From sequence record NC_041869.1: a DNA stretch of 64,000 bases; one strand, 5' to 3'. Made by a program: the position numbers and the translations under genes. The stretch comes from Escherichia phage APECc02. The notes below the pieces were generated by a model. It made no database searches. It saw only the letters and a program-made list of their open reading frames with translations, and was not told the origin of the DNA. Of this stretch, positions 33,395-43,084 are shown piece after piece. Numbering within the stretch: the first letter of the stretch is position 1; each line of letters starts with the position of its first letter.

Positions 33395-33420
33395 AGGGGC
33401 TTAAAGCCCCTTTCTTTTTG
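33395..33420 (+). terminator. rho-independent terminator
   Basis: hairpin AGGGGC-TTAAA-GCCCCT followed by TTCTTTTTG. Confidence 0.65.
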
Positions 33421-34028
33421 TCTCCTCTTTTCCTACCACAAATGGCCCCGCCTGGCAAATGGAATAATCAACAAGCCAGCAATTAACCCCACTGTACAAA
33501 CATACATATAAAATAACTATTGCATAATTTTTCATTGTGTGGTAGCAGGGCCATTTTTACACGTTTTTCCTTCCAAAATTGCACGTAATGCAGCATTTGC
33601 ACAAAATTTAACCTGATGCATATCTTCAATAGCTTGTCAACAACTAAAAATCTTTATAAGTCATACACTTACATAACTACAAAAGCGTTTTCTACGTGAA
33701 AAATCGAGTATAACTATAGCCGCCAGATCTCAGAATTTACGTACGCTCGCCATTCTATAGCCTGCTAAGCATTTATTCCAACCATAGAATAACGGAATAG
33801 TCAATACCTGCATAAAATAATTATTCGTGTAAACTGCATAACATAAATCGGCCCAGGTGTCAACATTTTTCGTAAACAGTCTGGAATTGTCACGTTAGGT
33901 TACCATAAGCAGAGAAATCTTTAGTCGTCTAATGTTTACTGTACGTTACTATACTAACTGAAATCATTAGATGACTAATAGAAAGATAAGAAATAATTAA
34001 CAATACAATTATTTTATCTGTAACAATA

Positions 34029-34205
34029 AGGCAACTATGCAAACGAATGGCATGGCGCGACGGAGTCGCGACATAATATAAAAGCAGTAACCATCACCCC
34101 CGTGATAGTTTGTCTGCAAACTATTAATCAGATCATAGTTGCCTTGTATTTAGTTAATCATGACATAACAAGCAAGGCAACTATAGATCTGCTAATAGTT
34201 GCCCT
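34029..34205. repeat. four copies of 11-mer AAGGCAACTAT in alternating orientation (candidate protein-binding sites)
   Basis: plus-orientation at 34029 and 34174, inverted at 34136 and 34195; 34135-34146/34173-34184 form a 12-bp perfect inverted repeat 26 bp apart. Confidence 0.6.
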
Positions 34206-34317
34206 GCTTTTATATTATGTCATAGAAACACCCGAAGGGGTGACCAAAGGTTACCTGGCATAGCCAGTGAAAGATTATTAACTTGCTAATCTTTATCATG
34301 CAAACGAATGGCATGGC
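34037..34317. repeat. 20-bp perfect direct repeat ATGCAAACGAATGGCATGGC
   Basis: copies at 34037-34056 and 34298-34317. Confidence 0.65.
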
Positions 34318-34338
34318 TTATCATTTCTGTGTAAATAG

Positions 34339-34390
34339 TCTATGCGTAAACTGTCAAGGCGTAAACAATCTATGCGTGAACAGTGAAACA
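34339..34390. repeat. short direct repeats TCTATGCGT(A/G)AAC and GCGTAAAC
   Basis: TCTATGCGTAAAC at 34339, GGCGTAAACA at 34359, TCTATGCGTGAAC at 34369. Confidence 0.5.
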
Positions 34391-34423
34391 TGAAATAATA
34401 ACAGTTGTTATTGTGTCATATTG

Positions 34424-34505
34424 TGCTGCAGCGTGTTGAGTATGTTTAAGGTGCCCAGTATGTCACCATTATGTCACTATTGTGTCATAGTGTCATAGTA
34501 TGTCA
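34424..34505. repeat. iteron-like array of TGTCA(C/T) pentamers at about 10-11 bp phasing
   Basis: TGTCA at 34424, 34461, 34472, 34483, 34491, 34501 (plus 34362, 34525). Confidence 0.6.
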
Positions 34506-35083
34506 GACAAGTTTTTCCCCTCTTTGTCAAGTGCTGCATGAAAAAATTTACAAGCTGGTATGGTAGCATTTTTGCGGCCTTGTTTACATTCAGTAATGTA
34601 TGTATAACCCTTGATGTGTGGGCGTTTAGACGTCTAGACGGTCAGAAGTCTGCAGGTCAATATCTAATCTATTGGCTGCTAACTATATCCCCCACAAATA
34701 ATAAGAAATATAATTGTTATGTGCGTAAACAGTAACTCATGTTATCAATCCCTGTATGGATCGCCAGTGGTGCGCATAATGGGTATTATGTTAAATTGCC
34801 CGTAATGATAACTATTCTCACAATGATAGGTATTCTCATTCACCCCCACAAGATAGGTTGCAAATGTTGTGCCACTGTGTGAACGGCCTAGCCTATTAAT
34901 TTGCCTCACTGCCTTGATATTTGAGAATTGTTATAAGAATGAGAAGTATTCCCATTTCGTCCGCCTGGCAGCACTCCTGTAGGTCCTGCAAGGACTCTAG
35001 CTGAAAGCTAGACCCTTCGGGCCTCCCTGTAGGTCAGGTCAAAATCGTGGTAGAATTGGGCCTGTTCAGATATTTCTGGCTGA

Positions 35084-35643
35084 CTCTTCAGGTCTGTGTG
35101 GGAAAAGCCAACCTCTCCGGCGGGGCAGGGGGTCATGACGGGAAAATTGCAGGTCAATTAAAAAATTTACGTGGTGTATGAAGCGCTCTTCAGGTAAGGC
35201 ATGTATTATGGGATGAAACCCTCTTCAGGCAATGATATTTGTGGGTGTGATATTTGCTGGAAAGCCAGATATGACGGGACTCCCGGCGGGGCAGGGGTAG
35301 TACAGACAGGGAAAATATGAGAATGTAGTTGGGGAAATTGATCAGACAGGTAGAGTATGGAATATGTTACAAGTATGTTAAATATGGAGGTTGAATATCT
35401 GTAGGATTTGTGTGTAAAATCAAAGACTTAAGGGGTGTTGTGGTATTTTCTATAAATAATTCAAGTTTAATAGGCAATATTTGTCTCTATCCGCTTTGTG
35501 TGGTAAACAGATTCAGATTAGATTGGTTTACAAGTGTATACATAATATACAAATTAAAGATACAAGAAACCCCCCTCCCCCCTTCGGCTACCATTCACCT
35601 TTTCCTCTGACTGGTACTTAAACACTTATTCAGACTCTTCAGG
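35084..35643. repeat. dispersed direct repeats CTCTTCAGG (x4), CCGGCGGGGCAGGGG (x2), CCTGTAGGTC (x2)
   Basis: CTCTTCAGG at 35084, 35186, 35221, 35635; CCGGCGGGGCAGGGG at 35117 and 35283, each followed by G-rich GGGAAAAT. Confidence 0.55.
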
Positions 35644-35993
35644 TTATCACCCATATATCATATGGCAGTGACTGGTGTCCTCCGGCCCCTCTTTCGTCAC
35701 CCGTCCGCTTCGCCATGCTAATGCCATAGCTAATGGTTCGGTTGTTCACCCTGTTCACTCAGGTGTATCTCTATACCCCTTCAAACCGAAGAGAACAGAA
35801 AACCCGAATTACTCGGTAAAAGAAAAGAGAAGAACTTAATTTTATCAGGATAGGCAAGAATGTCAAGGCATGACTGCTCACTAAACAAGCAAACAGTCAT
35901 GTGTGGGAGGTAAGTGATTGTGGTGGTAGGAAATTTAGTTGAAAGATGTGTTATAGGTGCTTCCAGCACTTTAGCCGGGCAGCTAATTGTGTG

Positions 35994-36209
35994 TCAGTCC
36001 AGCGGTTCATCCTCTACTTCACTGAAATCAATGTTCATGGTCTCTTCCCAACCATCGATCTCAGCACAAGAGTGGAGTTCTTTAGGGTTTACTCCCAAAG
36101 CCTCAGCAACAGAGTCTATATTTAACACCTCTGGCAGGTATGATTCATCGAATTCAAGGTAAATCAGGCCACGAGTGTTGTCAGCTCCACCAAATATCTC
36201 TATCTTCAT
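35994..36209 (-). CDS. hypothetical small acidic protein
   Basis: 71-aa ORF, last gene of minus-strand block. Confidence 0.5.
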   Translation of the reverse strand: MKIEIFGGADNTRGLIYLEFDESYLPEVLNIDSVAEALGVNPKELHSCAEIDGWEETMNIDFSEVEDEPLD

Positions 36210-39998: not shown

Positions 39999-40394
39999 TT
40001 ACTGAAACAGTGCGGATAAATTACCTTCTGGTGGGAACTTATCTGCCAAAAACGGTGTTAGCACAGTAGCCTTCTGAAGATCTGGGGTCCACTCGTTGTT
40101 CAGAACATCCCAGTAGTACGCAATGTTGCTGTGTGGGTGCCGCATTACGAACTTTTTCCCTTCGTAGTCATCTGAAACCTCTACAGAAGAAATAACAACA
40201 GAATCTTCAAGGGTTTCTTCATAGAAAGATCCGCCTTCAAATTTCCAACGAGATGCAAGAGCCCCTGCCTTGAACGCTGCAGATAACGGACTGTCGGCAA
40301 GAACATACATTTCTTGCACTCTGTCGCTGCGATCTTTGCTTCTTACGTTGTATACAGTATCTGAGCTATACTCAACACGGTATAGGCTTACCAT
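39999..40394 (-). CDS. hypothetical protein (paralog of 42202..42612)
   Basis: shares V..HP.S....YW......WTP motif with 42202..42612. Confidence 0.55.
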   Translation of the reverse strand: MVSLYRVEYSSDTVYNVRSKDRSDRVQEMYVLADSPLSAAFKAGALASRWKFEGGSFYEETLEDSVVISSVEVSDDYEGKKFVMRHPHSNIAYYWDVLNNEWTPDLQKATVLTPFLADKFPPEGNLSALFQ

Positions 40395-40726
40395 TACCGC
40401 ACCTCCTCAATAACTTCCACATCTGAACCCACCACAAATGCAAAAGGACAGGTTTCATGAAAGACATCCGGATCGCCGCCAAGCTTGCTAACAATTTCTC
40501 CACCACTAATAAACACAAGCTCACCGATATTCATCAGATTGCTGAAATAGTATCCATAATGATTAAAGAATGCAGCAGGGTCAGGTAGACTAGTGGCCTC
40601 AAGCACTACATCGGTTGAGGTTACTTTCTTATCATAGCCTCTCGCCTTCTGAGATGCAAGATCTGCAGAATCCTCAGGCGACCGGAGATGCACAGGAATT
40701 GTTTCACCAATAAAGCGTACTTTCAT
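40394..40726 (-). CDS. hypothetical acidic protein, MKVK-family paralog
   Basis: likely ATG start giving MKVRFIGE (track start 40753 is TTG); VGSDVEVIEE tail. Confidence 0.5.
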   Translation of the reverse strand: MKVRFIGETIPVHLRSPEDSADLASQKARGYDKKVTSTDVVLEATSLPDPAAFFNHYGYYFSNLMNIGELVFISGGEIVSKLGGDPDVFHETCPFAFVVGSDVEVIEEVR

Positions 40727-40730
40727 ATTA

Positions 40731-40994
40731 TCACCCAACAACCATAGCTTCAAAAGGGGTCATGAACGAATAAACGGCATCATCATCTGCTTCAGGGAAT
40801 GCTCCCAAAGACTTCATGTCTGAGCCCTTGACAAATACAAGGTTTTGATCAAAGGCTTCTTGGGGGTCAATCCGATACATATCTCGTAGGATATCACTTA
40901 CCTCCTCATCAAGAGGTGAGTATGCTGTGCACGTTTTTCCGATCAAGCTTTGAGAATCAGGGTATCCACCTGAAGTTTTAAAATAAACAATCAT
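40731..40994 (-). CDS. hypothetical acidic protein, MKVK-family-related
   Basis: VFVKGSDMKSLGA resembles the G.DL(I/L)AAGA core of the family. Confidence 0.5.
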   Translation of the reverse strand: MIVYFKTSGGYPDSQSLIGKTCTAYSPLDEEVSDILRDMYRIDPQEAFDQNLVFVKGSDMKSLGAFPEADDDAVYSFMTPFEAMVVG

Positions 40995-41085
40995 ATAGTA
41001 TCACCTCTGGTAAGAGATTGGGATTCCTTTCCCACAAATAATTACAAACCTTCCTTGTCGAGGAAGTATGCTAATCCAAGCAGGA

Positions 41086-41355
41086 TTATTCCTCTACAAT
41101 CTCATACACATCCGGAGTTACAATCAACTCTTCTCCGTTACCCGGTGCAACAAACACCACCATTCCTTCAGGTGTGTGCTTTTTAGCCATCTCGATAACA
41201 TCTTCTCGCAGAGCTGGCTCCATCAGATCAAAACCTTCACCAAGGGCATCACGAACCACCTTCATATAGTCAACTGGTTGTGCTTCGACAATCATGCCTT
41301 CAACCAGTCCACAATTTTTGTCTGCCAGCTCAGTTTGGAATAATTTAATTTTCAT
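41086..41355 (-). CDS. hypothetical acidic protein
   Basis: MKIKLF start, YEIVEE end. Confidence 0.5.
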   Translation of the reverse strand: MKIKLFQTELADKNCGLVEGMIVEAQPVDYMKVVRDALGEGFDLMEPALREDVIEMAKKHTPEGMVVFVAPGNGEELIVTPDVYEIVEE

Positions 41356-41505
41356 TTAGAGGTCTCCTCAATTATTTGATATTAATAGCCGTAACCTAAC
41401 ACATTAACTACAACTGCGATTGCAAACATAATTTCAAAGCATGCAATCTCTACATTTGGGACTAATTTCTTAATCACACCCATTGTAGCACCTCATTCTC
41501 CAAAG

Positions 41506-41811
41506 TCAATCTTTACTTTGCCTCTCCCCCTTACCTTTCTTTCTACCGCACTTAGCCAGTTGACGTGCTGCAACATCTACCATACGGTCAGTTGCCTCGT
41601 AAGCATCACTGCCTTTAGCTTTGGCAATAACTTCTTTTCCAGAATTGTCAAAAATGAACGCCATAACTTCCTGGTGATCATTTTCAACTTTTACACTCAC
41701 ACGTGCATAGTTGGCAGAGGGGTGCAAACGCTCCAGCTTAGACATTTTGTTGGAAATGAAAGACACCATACCTTCAGTGATTTCTACGTTGCCAGTGATT
41801 TCAATTTGCAT
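41506..41811 (-). CDS. ribosome hibernation promoting factor / RaiA (YfiA) family protein
   Basis: MQIEITGNVEITEGMVSFISNKMSKLERL ... VSVKVEN ... NSGKEVIAKAKGSDAYEATDRMVDVAARQLAK aligns along its length with bacterial HPF (MQLNITG.NVEITEAL...KL...VKVEK...G.E..A.A.G.DMY.A.D...DKLARQL.K). Confidence 0.7.
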   Translation of the reverse strand: MQIEITGNVEITEGMVSFISNKMSKLERLHPSANYARVSVKVENDHQEVMAFIFDNSGKEVIAKAKGSDAYEATDRMVDVAARQLAKCGRKKGKGERQSKD

Positions 41812-41893
41812 AACGTGTTCCTTTTAAAGAAGAGGGGACCAAACCCTCTTTGAAAACAATGATACTAAATCTGAAGCGTTGTGTCAACAGTTT

Positions 41894-42184
41894 TTACAGA
41901 TTGTTGTCGATAGTTTTTAAAATATCCACAGCAAGATCTGCCATTTTTCGAACATACTCTGCAAACTCAACAGGATCCTTGATCAAAGAATTCACAGGGT
42001 CGTACCCTAGAGCGTTCAAAATGGTTGCAGCATCTACAACCTTCTCATCATTTGCGAAGATCTCTCCGTCAAACTTGTAGGTCCATTTTGAGTCAACCTT
42101 AGCAGAGCAGGGTTTGTCCATGCTTGTTACACCATCGTCTTTAAACTCTCCTGCGTTATCAATATTCAGAACTAAATCCATCAT
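41894..42184 (-). CDS. hypothetical acidic protein
   Basis: 96-aa ORF. Confidence 0.5.
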   Translation of the reverse strand: MMDLVLNIDNAGEFKDDGVTSMDKPCSAKVDSKWTYKFDGEIFANDEKVVDAATILNALGYDPVNSLIKDPVEFAEYVRKMADLAVDILKTIDNNL

Positions 42185-42201
42185 AGTGGCACCTCACTGT
42201 T

Positions 42202-42612
42202 TCAGTTTAGCTTTTCTTCAACAACCCCATAACTTGGGGCAGAGTCAAGAGCTTTCTGGTTTAAAAGTGGTGTAGCAGAATCTGCAAACGGTGTCCAAGT
42301 TTTTGTTCTGGCATTCCAGTAATGCTTCACTCTAGAATCTGGGTGCACTATAACAAAAACTTTTTCACTTGTCAACACATTAATTTCTTCCACACCTTTG
42401 CTGATAATTTCTCCGTCATATCCCCCGGTCTGGTATCCTTCGTACCAGGTTCTTGCATAGGCATAGCCAGCCTGCCAGCATGCAGCCTCCTCCGAGGTGG
42501 AGACTACGTAGAAGTCTTTCTCAAATTCTGGGATACGCCCTTGCTTTACGCTCCAAGCTCCGCGAATTTTCATTGTAACTTTGAACAGTTTATTTTTCAC
42601 AACGGTTACCAA
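42202..42612 (-). CDS. hypothetical protein (paralog of 39999..40394)
   Basis: VIVHPDSRVKHYWNARTKTWTP motif shared with 39999..40394. Confidence 0.55.
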   Translation of the reverse strand: MVTVVKNKLFKVTMKIRGAWSVKQGRIPEFEKDFYVVSTSEEAACWQAGYAYARTWYEGYQTGGYDGEIISKGVEEINVLTSEKVFVIVHPDSRVKHYWNARTKTWTPFADSATPLLNQKALDSAPSYGVVEEKLN

Positions 42613-42867
42613 TCACAGCTCTACAATATCTGCATCTGACCCTGCCCCAAAGGCATAATAGGACTCTTCCCCGAAATAATATTCCGGTGCACCAGCAGCG
42701 ATCAGGTCTGATCCCAAGATAAACACCACGTTGTGGCCTACATAACTGTGATGTTGCCGCACAGGATCATCCCACGGCAACCCTTCAAAGTATACCGCAG
42801 GAACGACCTTTCCCTTCAGGAAGGATTGTCCCAAGTAGACGTTAGAATCAAGAATTTTAACCTTCAT
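42613..42867 (-). CDS. hypothetical acidic protein, MKVK-family paralog
   Basis: MKVKILD ... GSDLIAAGA ... DADIVEL. Confidence 0.55.
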   Translation of the reverse strand: MKVKILDSNVYLGQSFLKGKVVPAVYFEGLPWDDPVRQHHSYVGHNVVFILGSDLIAAGAPEYYFGEESYYAFGAGSDADIVEL

Positions 42868-43084
42868 GATCGTCCTCCACTATCTCTACATCCTCACCAA
42901 GGGCAAAGTTGTAGGTCCACTGACTGTCAAAGCAGTCCTGAGATGCACCAGCGGCAATAAGATCTGCACCTTTTATTTTTAAAAGGTCAGGATAATCTTC
43001 GTTAGGGATAGCGGTAAACACTTTCCCCACTAAGGGCTCCTGACCAATATAGAAGCTTGAATCTAAAACTTTAACTTTCATCAA
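42857..43084 (-). CDS. hypothetical acidic protein, MKVK-family paralog
   Basis: MMKVKVLD ... GADLIAAGA ... EDVEIVEDD. Confidence 0.55.
   Translation of the reverse strand: MMKVKVLDSSFYIGQEPLVGKVFTAIPNEDYPDLLKIKGADLIAAGASQDCFDSQWTYNFALGEDVEIVEDDHEG

What the first reader, a model, noticed from the sequence alone, without database searches (positions are those of the whole stretch)
41506..41811. Phage-encoded ribosome hibernation factor (HPF/RaiA family) inside an array of small acidic proteins
The 101-aa product aligns along its whole length with bacterial HPF/YfiA (MQ.xITG.NVEITE...KL...VKVE...G.E..A.A.G.D.Y.A.D...D..ARQL.K). A hibernation factor in a virulent phage suggests direct control of host ribosome activity or dimerisation during infection.
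Basis: partly seen in the sequence, partly recalled or inferred. Interest (0 to 1): 0.7.

Follow-up and report, generated by a model that had tools for sequence, protein, structure and literature searches.

The report
Known phage copy of ribosome-hibernation factor
The ORF is a real, well-conserved homologue of the bacterial ribosome hibernation factor HPF in an rV5-like E. coli phage, but it has been annotated since 2008 and was published and partly tested in 2019, so the only open question is what it does during infection.

Summary
Window 41506-41811 (minus strand) encodes a 101-aa protein that passes the curated cut-offs of Pfam PF02482 and TIGR00741. Its predicted fold superposes on ribosome-bound E. 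coli HPF at 1.1 A rmsd. The window is a Vequintavirus (rV5-like) genome, and the exact protein is RefSeq YP_009593616.1 of phage APCEc02.

The gene is not new. It is rV5 ORF144/gp139, named hpf/RaiA/sigma-54 modulation factor in many GenBank records. Mizuno et al. 2019 expressed it in E. coli and did not find it on salt-washed ribosomes, nor any change in 100S particles.

- dN/dS is 0.03-0.14, and the gene is kept at the same position in two diverged phage lineages (60-65% identity).
- A near-consensus sigma-70 promoter upstream is conserved.
- The closest cellular relatives are Enterobacterales short HPFs at only 38-45% identity.
- The helix-2 basic stripe is reduced and a Lys/Gly tail is added. 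In this window the tail is frameshifted.
- The 2019 negative lacks a positive control, because the host's own HPF was also absent from those ribosomes. Host YfiA was missing only from the viral-HPF sample.

My reading is a reversible occupant of the 30S decoding site that competes with host hibernation factors. That step is inferred, not shown.

The parts
41506..41811 (-). hpf-like CDS, 101 aa plus stop; S30AE domain = residues 1-88, disordered basic tail = residues 89-101
   Evidence: ORF. Pfam, TIGR00741 and PHROG hits. AF2 model with pLDDT 87 and beta-alpha-beta-beta-beta-alpha topology; residues 92-101 have pLDDT below 50. Foldseek top 35 PDB hits are all HPF/YfiA/pY. Exact match to YP_009593616.1 of phage APCEc02.
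41526..41530 (-). G5 run (C5 on the + strand) where this window carries one extra G relative to rV5, ime and Phage 203. It shifts the tail from ...GGKKGKGKGKVKIDFGE (105 aa) to ...GRKKGKGERQSKD (101 aa)
   Evidence: DNA alignment; coordinates. Tail variants of 99, 101, 103, 104 and 105 aa occur in other isolates. The 101-aa form is seen in at least two distinct sequences and 6 contigs.
41859..41887 (-). sigma-70-type promoter TTGACA-17-TATCAT (11 of 12 consensus matches), equivalent to promoter P144 annotated in rV5
   Evidence: Scan; rV5 annotation. AAACTGTTGACAC is invariant in 7 Vequintavirus copies and in the diverged phage L003. Function as a promoter is inferred, not measured.
41830..41850 (-). 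7-bp stem-loop at the predicted 5' end of the hpf transcript
   Evidence: Fold of -9.3 kcal/mol but z-score -0.12, so not better than shuffles. The stem is largely kept across isolates. Weak feature of uncertain significance.
41819..41823 (-). Shine-Dalgarno AAGGA, 7 nt upstream of the ATG
   Evidence: Read directly from the sequence; conserved in all Vequintavirus copies.
41382..41483 (-). 33-aa hydrophobic ORF immediately downstream (rV5 gp140), probably co-transcribed; absent from the diverged lineages
   Evidence: No equivalent gene between hpf and the 89-aa ORF in L003 or L013.
41086..41355 (-). 89-aa acidic ORF (pI 4.3) downstream, syntenic with hpf in all three phage lineages; mislabelled 'sigma 54 modulation factor' in some records
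   Evidence: 61% identity to the L003 neighbour. No Pfam hit and no BLAST similarity to HPF. Mis-annotation seen.

Best explanation
Shown: the ORF encodes a genuine, selectively maintained member of the HPF/YfiA (S30AE) family. It is closest to the 95-aa short HPF of Enterobacterales and is carried by rV5-like (Vequintavirus) lytic phages at a fixed position in a long block of small genes. It has its own near-consensus sigma-70 promoter.

Inferred: host RNA polymerase transcribes it early. The protein docks, as cellular HPF and YfiA do, in the A/P-site channel of vacant host 30S/70S ribosomes, through the retained Lys22/Lys25 of helix 1 and Arg83/Lys87 (plus Lys91) of helix 2. The phage lineage has lost Lys80 and Lys89 of the helix-2 basic stripe and the Thr53/His55/His62 sheet motif of its host's HPF, and carries a flexible Lys/Gly tail instead. 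I therefore infer that binding is weaker and more salt-sensitive, so readily reversible.

The most likely role is a competitive placeholder. It excludes the host's own inactivators (YfiA, HPF with RMF) from the decoding site, so ribosomes stay protected but quickly available for phage mRNAs. It would not drive classical 100S hibernation.
For: Family and fold:
- Pfam 49.3 bits against a 23.7 cut-off, and TIGR00741 47.3 against 40.9.
- AF2 pLDDT 87; rmsd 1.0-1.1 A to V. cholerae HPF and to E. coli HPF in the 100S ribosome; the top 35 PDB hits are all from the family.

Functional constraint:
- dN/dS is 0.03-0.14 over codons 1-88 among 9 isolates.
- Homologues at 65% and 60% identity sit at the syntenic position in diverged phages.

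Expression:
- The conserved TTGACA-17-TATCAT promoter is annotated as P144 in rV5.
- The gene lies in the transcription unit that also holds the nucleotide-metabolism genes.

Binding surface:
- K22, K25, E43, R83 and K87 are invariant in all phage lineages. R83 is the residue that contacts m4C1402 in cryo-EM structures.
- K80 and K89, which are Lys in 20 and 18 of 26 diverse family members, are lost in all three phage lineages.

Competition lead, from the supplementary MS tables of PMC6375957:
- Host YfiA is on salt-washed ribosomes from bL12-expressing cells (6 spectra) and bS21-expressing cells (1 spectrum).
- It has 0 spectra on ribosomes of similar depth from viral-HPF cells, although it is present in their crude extract.
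Against: - No direct evidence of ribosome binding exists. The rV5 protein was not detected in 70S/100S fractions and did not change 100S abundance when expressed in E. coli.
- The YfiA difference rests on one sample per condition, is not quantitative, and could reflect culture-to-culture variation in growth phase.
- Of 10 ribosome-contact positions invariant in Enterobacterales HPF, the window protein keeps only 3 and the diverged lineages only 1. This compares with 18-19 of 33 non-contact invariant positions (Fisher p=0.16 and 0.03). That pattern would also fit a changed partner.
- Timing of expression has not been measured; I found no transcriptome for these phages.
- The extreme C-terminus is evidently dispensable, being frameshifted here and truncated in Murica, so the tail argument applies only to its basic part.
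Confidence: 0.45

Rival explanations
1. Classical hibernation or host shut-off. The phage HPF acts like host HPF, locking vacant ribosomes into inactive 70S/100S particles to shut down host translation or to store ribosomes.
For: The protein is closest to short HPF, not RaiA: NF007780 scores 56 bits against 20 bits for NF007654. It has the same fold and retains R83 and K87.
Against: Expression in E. coli had no discernible effect on 100S particles or on 70S stability. A tight decoding-site blocker made from an early promoter would also block phage translation. The basic stripe is weakened, not strengthened. The score is far below the HPF equivalog cut-off, 56 against 125.
Confidence: 0.2
2. 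Ribosome shield. The protein occupies the decoding centre to protect 16S rRNA from host ribonucleases or from ribosome-targeting abortive-infection toxins while host mRNA is being destroyed.
For: Cellular HPF protects ribosomes from RNase R-mediated degradation (abstract of PMC8406268, listed). The gene is retained under strong purifying selection in lytic phages. This overlaps mechanistically with the best explanation, since it involves the same binding site.
Against: No evidence here of any link to a defence system, and no data on rRNA integrity during infection. The same lack of demonstrated ribosome binding applies.
Confidence: 0.15
3. Neofunctionalised. The S30AE fold is kept, but the protein no longer binds the ribosome and instead binds another RNA or protein.
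For: It was absent from ribosome fractions although abundant in the extract. Contact positions diverged more than non-contact ones: 1-3 of 10 against 18-19 of 33. Ten positions are fixed in the phage clade to a residue different from the one fixed in Enterobacterales.
Against: Host HPF, a proven binder, was likewise absent from all three ribosome preparations, so the negative has no positive control. The substitutions (R at 29, F at 55, hydrophobic at 62, V at 80) all occur in other family members. R83, K87, K22 and K25 are retained.
Confidence: 0.15
4. Decaying passenger gene picked up from a host, with no function.
For: The C-terminal tail is frameshifted or truncated in some isolates.
Against: dN/dS is 0.03-0.14. 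The gene is intact in 117 phage records and retained in lineages only 60-65% identical. The promoter and SD are conserved. Identity to any cellular HPF is at most 45%, so it is not a recent capture.
Confidence: 0.02

Closest known systems
rV5 gp139 (ORF144, ABI79209 / YP_002003641) and its orthologues in about 117 Vequintavirus genomes; described as phage HPF by Mizuno et al. 2019 (PMC6375957) and Mathieu et al. 2020 (PMC6969025)
   Same: Same gene: 99% identical over residues 1-88, with the same position, promoter and neighbours. The exact window protein is YP_009593616.1 of phage APCEc02.
   Different: Only the last 12-16 residues differ, through a 1-nt indel in a G run: 101 aa here against 105 aa in rV5.
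Short HPF (YhbH) of E. coli and other Enterobacterales, 95 aa (PDB 2rql, 6h4n, 4v8h)
   Same: Same beta-alpha-beta-beta-beta-alpha fold at rmsd 1.1 A. It is the best sequence match among solved structures. K26, E44, N57, E60, R83, K87 and K91 are retained in the window protein.
   Different: Identity is only 38-45%. The score of 56 bits is below the 125-bit equivalog cut-off. There is one residue fewer in the beta1-alpha1 loop and one more in the beta3-beta4 loop. T53, H55, H62, K80 and K89 are replaced. The tail is 6-10 residues longer and rich in Lys/Gly. No 100S effect was reported.
YfiA / RaiA (protein Y) of E. coli, 113 aa
   Same: Same family and same expected binding site. Like YfiA, it is longer than HPF at the C-terminus.
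   Different: The RaiA model scores only 20 bits against a 158 cut-off, and identity is 22%. The tail is basic and unrelated to YfiA's acidic-ended tail. The RefSeq name 'RaiA' is therefore less apt than 'HPF/YfiA family'.
Other phage S30AE proteins (phrog_8990; Cronobacter phage GAP32 AFC21633)
   Same: Phage-borne HPF-family proteins in large myoviruses.
   Different: A separate PHROG: E=7e-7 against 4e-66 for its own phrog_12469. They were not retrieved by tblastn at E<=1e-3. Mizuno et al. place GAP32 apart in their tree, so this is probably an independent acquisition.

Membership tests
HPF/YfiA family (Pfam PF02482 Ribosomal_S30AE; TIGR00741) | Profile score above the curated cut-off over the whole domain | tested here: met
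   PF02482 scores 49.3 bits against 23.7, covering residues 3-91 on profile positions 1-86 of 88. TIGR00741 scores 47.3 against 40.9.
HPF/YfiA family (Pfam PF02482 Ribosomal_S30AE; TIGR00741) | beta-alpha-beta-beta-beta-alpha fold superposable on solved HPF/YfiA structures | tested here: met
   AF2 pLDDT 87.2 with elements E2-7, H13-29, E33-42, E47-55, E60-67 and H70-93. Foldseek: 4hei_A TM 0.85/0.93 at rmsd 1.0; 6h4n_x at rmsd 1.1; the top 35 hits are all from the family.
HPF/YfiA family (Pfam PF02482 Ribosomal_S30AE; TIGR00741) | Conserved basic residues of helix 2 that contact 16S rRNA (K80, R83, K87, K91; also K89) | tested here: inconclusive
   R83, K87 and K91 are kept; K80 becomes V and K89 becomes G. 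V, T or Q at position 80 occurs in other family members. The contact list comes from bioRxiv 10.1101/2025.10.07.680626.
HPF/YfiA family (Pfam PF02482 Ribosomal_S30AE; TIGR00741) | Binds the 30S decoding channel of vacant ribosomes | not testable with these tools
   The published test of the rV5 orthologue was negative under a 500 mM NH4Cl wash. Host HPF was also lost from the same preparations, so there is no positive control.
Short HPF equivalog (NCBIfam NF007780, E. coli YhbH type) | Score at or above the 125-bit equivalog cut-off | tested here: not met
   56.4 bits; 38-45% identity to Enterobacterales HPFs.
Short HPF equivalog (NCBIfam NF007780, E. coli YhbH type) | Promotes RMF-dependent 100S formation | not testable with these tools
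   Literature: no discernible effect on 100S in late-exponential cells. Not examined in stationary phase or during infection.
RaiA / YfiA equivalog (NCBIfam NF007654) | Score at or above the 158-bit cut-off, and a YfiA-type C-terminal extension | tested here: not met
   20 bits; 22% identity; the tail is unrelated in sequence.
Long HPF (N-terminal S30AE domain plus C-terminal dimerisation domain) | Presence of the C-terminal dimerisation domain | tested here: not met
   The protein is 101 aa. There is no second Pfam domain, and residues 92-101 are predicted disordered.

The most novel reading that the evidence does not exclude
The phage HPF is an anti-hibernation factor. It would be a weak, reversible mimic that evicts the host's tightly binding YfiA (and blocks HPF/RMF) from the decoding site, so that ribosomes of slow-growing or starved gut E. 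coli stay usable for phage translation. The unremarked absence of host YfiA from ribosomes of viral-HPF-expressing cells in the 2019 dataset would then be the first trace of this activity.
Probability: 0.3. Interest if true: 0.6.

Novelty: already known. Interest (0 to 1): 0.28.

Why it matters
The existence of the gene adds nothing new. It is in RefSeq under this very sequence and in two Nature Communications papers.

What still matters is the unanswered question of what a lytic phage gains from a hibernation-factor homologue. If it is a competitive, reversible occupant of the decoding site, it would be a viral counter-measure to ribosome hibernation. That would bear on how phages replicate in non-growing bacteria, and so on phage therapy against dormant cells.

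Tried and rejected
- A word-indexed homologue search with the single protein reached only phage copies. A profile search and an exhaustive phmmer search were needed to reach cellular HPFs.
- I looked for a second hpf copy, because some GenBank records list two 'sigma 54 modulation factor' genes. The 89-aa neighbour has no S30AE signal and no BLAST similarity, and tblastn finds no other copy in the window. This is an annotation error.
- I asked whether the CDS-free gap near 34 kb holds a tRNA cluster that would make a 'translation island'. There are no tRNAs or Rfam families anywhere in the window.
- The 5' hairpin as a regulatory element is not more stable than shuffles (z=-0.12), so I left it as a weak feature.
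- 'Loss of the ribosome-contact surface' as evidence for neofunctionalisation: depletion of contact residues is significant only for the diverged lineages (p=0.03) and not for the window protein (p=0.16). The replacement residues also occur in other family members, so this was not adopted as the main reading.
- Literature searches for transcriptomes or later functional work on Vequintavirus hpf found nothing beyond the 2019 and 2020 papers.
- Polikanov 2012 could not be retrieved. Residue contacts were taken from a 2025 preprint instead.

Full report
**1. Observation**

The ORF listing shows an ATG-initiated ORF of 101 codons at 41506..41811 on the minus strand (sequence).

- Pfam PF02482 (Ribosomal_S30AE) matches residues 3-91 to profile positions 1-86 of 88, with E=8.2e-13 and 49.3 bits against a gathering cut-off of 23.7.
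- NCBIfam TIGR00741 (HPF/YfiA family) scores 47.3 against a cut-off of 40.9.
- The E. coli-type HPF equivalog model NF007780 scores 56.4, below its 125 cut-off. The RaiA equivalog NF007654 scores only 20, below its 158 cut-off.
- The best solved-structure matches by sequence are E. coli HPF chains (2rql, 4v8h, 6h4n; E about 5e-12), then V. cholerae HPF. YfiA chains are much weaker.

The context claim also holds: 13 of the 18 flanking ORFs examined have pI 4.0-4.9, whereas the HPF homologue has pI 8.7.

**2. Where the window comes from, and what is already on record**

- The 4 kb around the gene is 93-98.5% identical to 119 phage records, all Vequintavirus (rV5-like lytic myoviruses of E. coli). 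tblastn finds the protein in 117 phage records at 90% identity or more.
- The exact 101-aa sequence is already in public databases as YP_009593616.1/AKO61837.1 of Escherichia phage APCEc02, named 'ribosome-associated translation inhibitor RaiA'.
- In the type phage rV5 it is gp139/ORF144. It is annotated as similar to the Klebsiella sigma-54 modulation protein and preceded by an annotated sigma-70 promoter, P144. Other records call it hpf, ribosome hibernation factor, or sigma-54 modulation factor.
- Mizuno et al. 2019 (PMC6375957) listed rV5, FV3, JES2013, FFH2 and typing phage 14 among phages encoding HPF. They synthesised the rV5 gene, expressed it in E. coli and analysed ribosomes. Mathieu et al. 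2020 (PMC6969025) repeated that rV5-like gut coliphages carry hpf.

The finding is therefore already known, both as annotation and in the literature.

**3. Structure**

An AlphaFold2 model built from a 33-sequence alignment has mean pLDDT 87.2 and pTM 0.77. Its topology is beta1 (2-7), alpha1 (13-29), beta2 (33-42), beta3 (47-55), beta4 (60-67) and alpha2 (70-93), followed by a disordered tail at 92-101. Foldseek against the PDB returns HPF/YfiA/pY proteins as the top 35 hits. These include V. cholerae HPF (TM 0.85/0.93, rmsd 1.0 A) and E. coli HPF as bound in the hibernating 100S ribosome (6h4n_x, rmsd 1.1 A). There is no C-terminal dimerisation domain, so this is a short-type factor.

**4. 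Is it a working gene?**

- Over codons 1-88, pairwise Nei-Gojobori dN/dS among nine Vequintavirus copies is 0.03-0.14, with dS up to 0.75.
- Two more distant homologues exist: P0004 (103 aa, 65% identity) and P0053 (104 aa, 60% identity).
- Both sit on phage-sized contigs at the same position in a collinear array of small genes, whose other members are 28-87% identical to the window's. Between the window and L003, pN=0.22 while pS is saturated at 0.83.

The domain has therefore been kept under purifying selection through substantial phage divergence, which rules out a decaying passenger.

**5. Origin**

An exhaustive phmmer search of 1.84 billion representatives gave only 29 hits at E<=1e-3. 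The best non-phage hit is 45% identical. A profile search returned hundreds of 95-aa Enterobacterales HPFs at 38-45% identity.

The phage clade is thus nearest to the short HPF of its hosts' order, as Mizuno et al. also found. But it is far more diverged from those HPFs than they are from each other (alignment). That argues for an old capture or fast evolution, not a recent transfer.

**6. Expression signals**

- Directly upstream lies TTGACA-17-TATCAT, matching 11 of 12 consensus positions, at 41887..41859.
- The -35 region with its upstream AAACTG is invariant in seven Vequintavirus copies and in the diverged phage L003.
- An AAGGA Shine-Dalgarno lies 7 nt before the ATG.
- A 7-bp hairpin at the predicted 5' end is present but no more stable than shuffled sequence.

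The gene belongs to the long co-oriented unit that also carries ribonucleotide reductases, PhoH and a ClpP-like protease. Kropinski et al. 2013 defined this unit as genes 82-163. Early transcription by host RNA polymerase is a reasonable inference but has not been measured, and I found no transcriptome.

**7. The ribosome-binding surface**

A 2025 cryo-EM preprint (bioRxiv 10.1101/2025.10.07.680626) lists the residues of Enterobacter, E. coli and Pseudomonas HPF that contact the ribosome:

| HPF residues | Ribosome contact |
|---|---|
| K80, R83, K87, K89, K91 (helix 2) | 16S rRNA; R83 contacts m4C1402 |
| T53, H/V62 | m2G966 |
| H/R55 with E60 | C-terminus of uS9 |
| K26, Q29 | phosphates near m3U1498 |

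Mapping these onto the phage proteins gives:

- All three phage lineages keep K25 (=K26), E43, R83 and K87. The rV5 type also keeps N56, E60 and K91.
- Q29 becomes Arg.
- K80 becomes V, T or I, and K89 becomes G, S or N.
- T53 becomes F or R, H55 becomes F, and H62 becomes I, M or L.

Of ten contact positions invariant in 29 Enterobacterales HPFs, the window protein keeps 3 and the diverged lineages keep 1. At non-contact invariant positions they keep 18-19 of 33 (Fisher p=0.16 and 0.03). However, Arg at 29, Phe at 55, a hydrophobic residue at 62 and Val at 80 all occur in other family members, so none of these changes is disqualifying.

The clearest net change is a thinner helix-2 basic stripe, together with a longer, flexible Lys/Gly tail (GGKKGKGKGKVKIDFGE in rV5). 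My inference is that the protein still targets the decoding channel but binds with lower, more salt-sensitive affinity.

**8. The tail in this window**

Relative to rV5, ime and Phage 203, the window has one extra G in a G run (C5 at 41526-41530 on the + strand). This shifts the last residues to GRKKGKGERQSKD and shortens the protein to 101 aa.

The variant occurs in at least two distinct database sequences and six contigs, so it is probably real and not a sequencing error. Murica ends even earlier, at 99 aa, and forms of 103 and 104 aa exist. The extreme C-terminus is therefore dispensable, while the basic stretch is always kept.

**9. Re-reading the published experiment**

Mizuno et al. grew arabinose-induced, uninfected NM522 cells to OD600=1. 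They pelleted ribosomes through a 500 mM NH4Cl sucrose cushion, ran gradients and analysed the 70S/100S fractions by MS. Viral HPF peptides were found in the crude extract but not on ribosomes, and 100S abundance was unchanged. The authors themselves listed growth phase, salt washing or genuine loss of binding as possible reasons.

Their supplementary tables show two things the text does not discuss. The main text never mentions YfiA, RaiA or RMF.

- First, host HPF and RMF are present in the crude extract of the viral-HPF culture (Supplementary Data 5). Both are absent from all three ribosome preparations (Data 2, 3 and 4). The procedure therefore does not retain even the host's own short HPF, and the negative result for the viral protein has no positive control.
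- Second, host YfiA is retained on ribosomes from bL12-expressing cells (2 peptides, 6 spectra, comparable to S14 and S17) and from bS21-expressing cells (1 spectrum). It is absent from ribosomes of viral-HPF cells sampled at similar depth (S14, S15, S21 and L30 each have 6 spectra), although YfiA is in that culture's extract.

This is one sample per condition and not quantitative, so it is only a lead. It is what one would expect if the viral protein competed YfiA off the shared site in vivo and was then itself stripped by high salt.

**10. Mechanism**

Putting this together, my best-supported reading has three steps.

- Shown: a genuine, constrained HPF-family protein with its own promoter.
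- Inferred from family knowledge and retained key residues: it binds the vacant 30S decoding channel.
- Inferred from the thinned basic stripe and the YfiA lead: the binding is reversible and competitive, so the protein acts as a placeholder that keeps host inactivators off the ribosome and does not drive 100S hibernation. This agrees with the competition idea that Mizuno et al. raised in their discussion.

I give the combined statement about 0.45. The rivals are classical hibernation or shut-off (0.2), a nuclease or toxin shield (0.15, which partly overlaps), neofunctionalisation away from the ribosome (0.15) and a functionless passenger (0.02, effectively refuted).

**11. Verdict**

The family assignment is supported and the functional claim is untested. 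Novelty is 'already known'.

Interest is low to moderate. A specialist would not be surprised by the gene. Still, the biological role of phage-borne hibernation factors remains open, and the experiments listed above would resolve it cheaply.

Noticed in passing
window 33400-36000: About 2.6 kb with no substantial ORFs between two convergent gene blocks. It is AT-rich (GC 0.33 at 33500-33999). It contains iteron-like repeats spaced 15 nt apart (GTAAAC..., 34331-34387, plus a copy at 34710), a perfect 18-nt inverted repeat (34070-34087 / 34204-34221) and an exact 20-nt direct repeat (34037 / 34298), and the GC-skew sign changes here. There are no tRNA or Rfam hits. Kropinski 2013 drew it as a 'non-coding' box. 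It is a candidate replication origin or terminus.
   Followed up: partly
window 39999-43084: The small acidic ORFs around hpf include paralogues. 42613-42867 and 42857-43084 are 41% identical (E 5e-15), with weaker links to 40394-40753 and 40731-40994. 39999-40394 and 42202-42612 are 28% identical (E 4e-10). None has a Pfam family, so this is an expanded family of unknown function.
   Followed up: partly
window 41086-41355 (and hpf itself in other records): GenBank mis-annotations. The 89-aa acidic ORF is labelled 'sigma 54 modulation factor' in MN850576 and related records, although it has no S30AE signal. The true hpf is labelled 'ATP-dependent protease La type I' in MT884008-11 and OR062525/30, and 'hypothetical protein' in several others.
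   Followed up: yes
phage records MG0656xx (e.g. L007): Eighteen 'UNVERIFIED: Campylobacter phage' records with host given as C. jejuni are Vequintavirus genomes 93-98% identical to this E. coli phage window. This is probably a host mislabel or a co-isolated coliphage.
   Followed up: no
protein P0139: A 1160-aa metagenomic protein matches residues 35-81 of the phage HPF in eight separate stretches. It looks like a tandem array of partial S30AE-like units.
   Followed up: no
window 41382-41483: A 33-aa hydrophobic ORF (rV5 gp140) sits between hpf and the 89-aa ORF, with a promoter-like TTGACT-16-TACAAT overlapping the hpf stop codon. It is present in Vequintavirus but absent from the two diverged hpf-carrying lineages.
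   Followed up: partly
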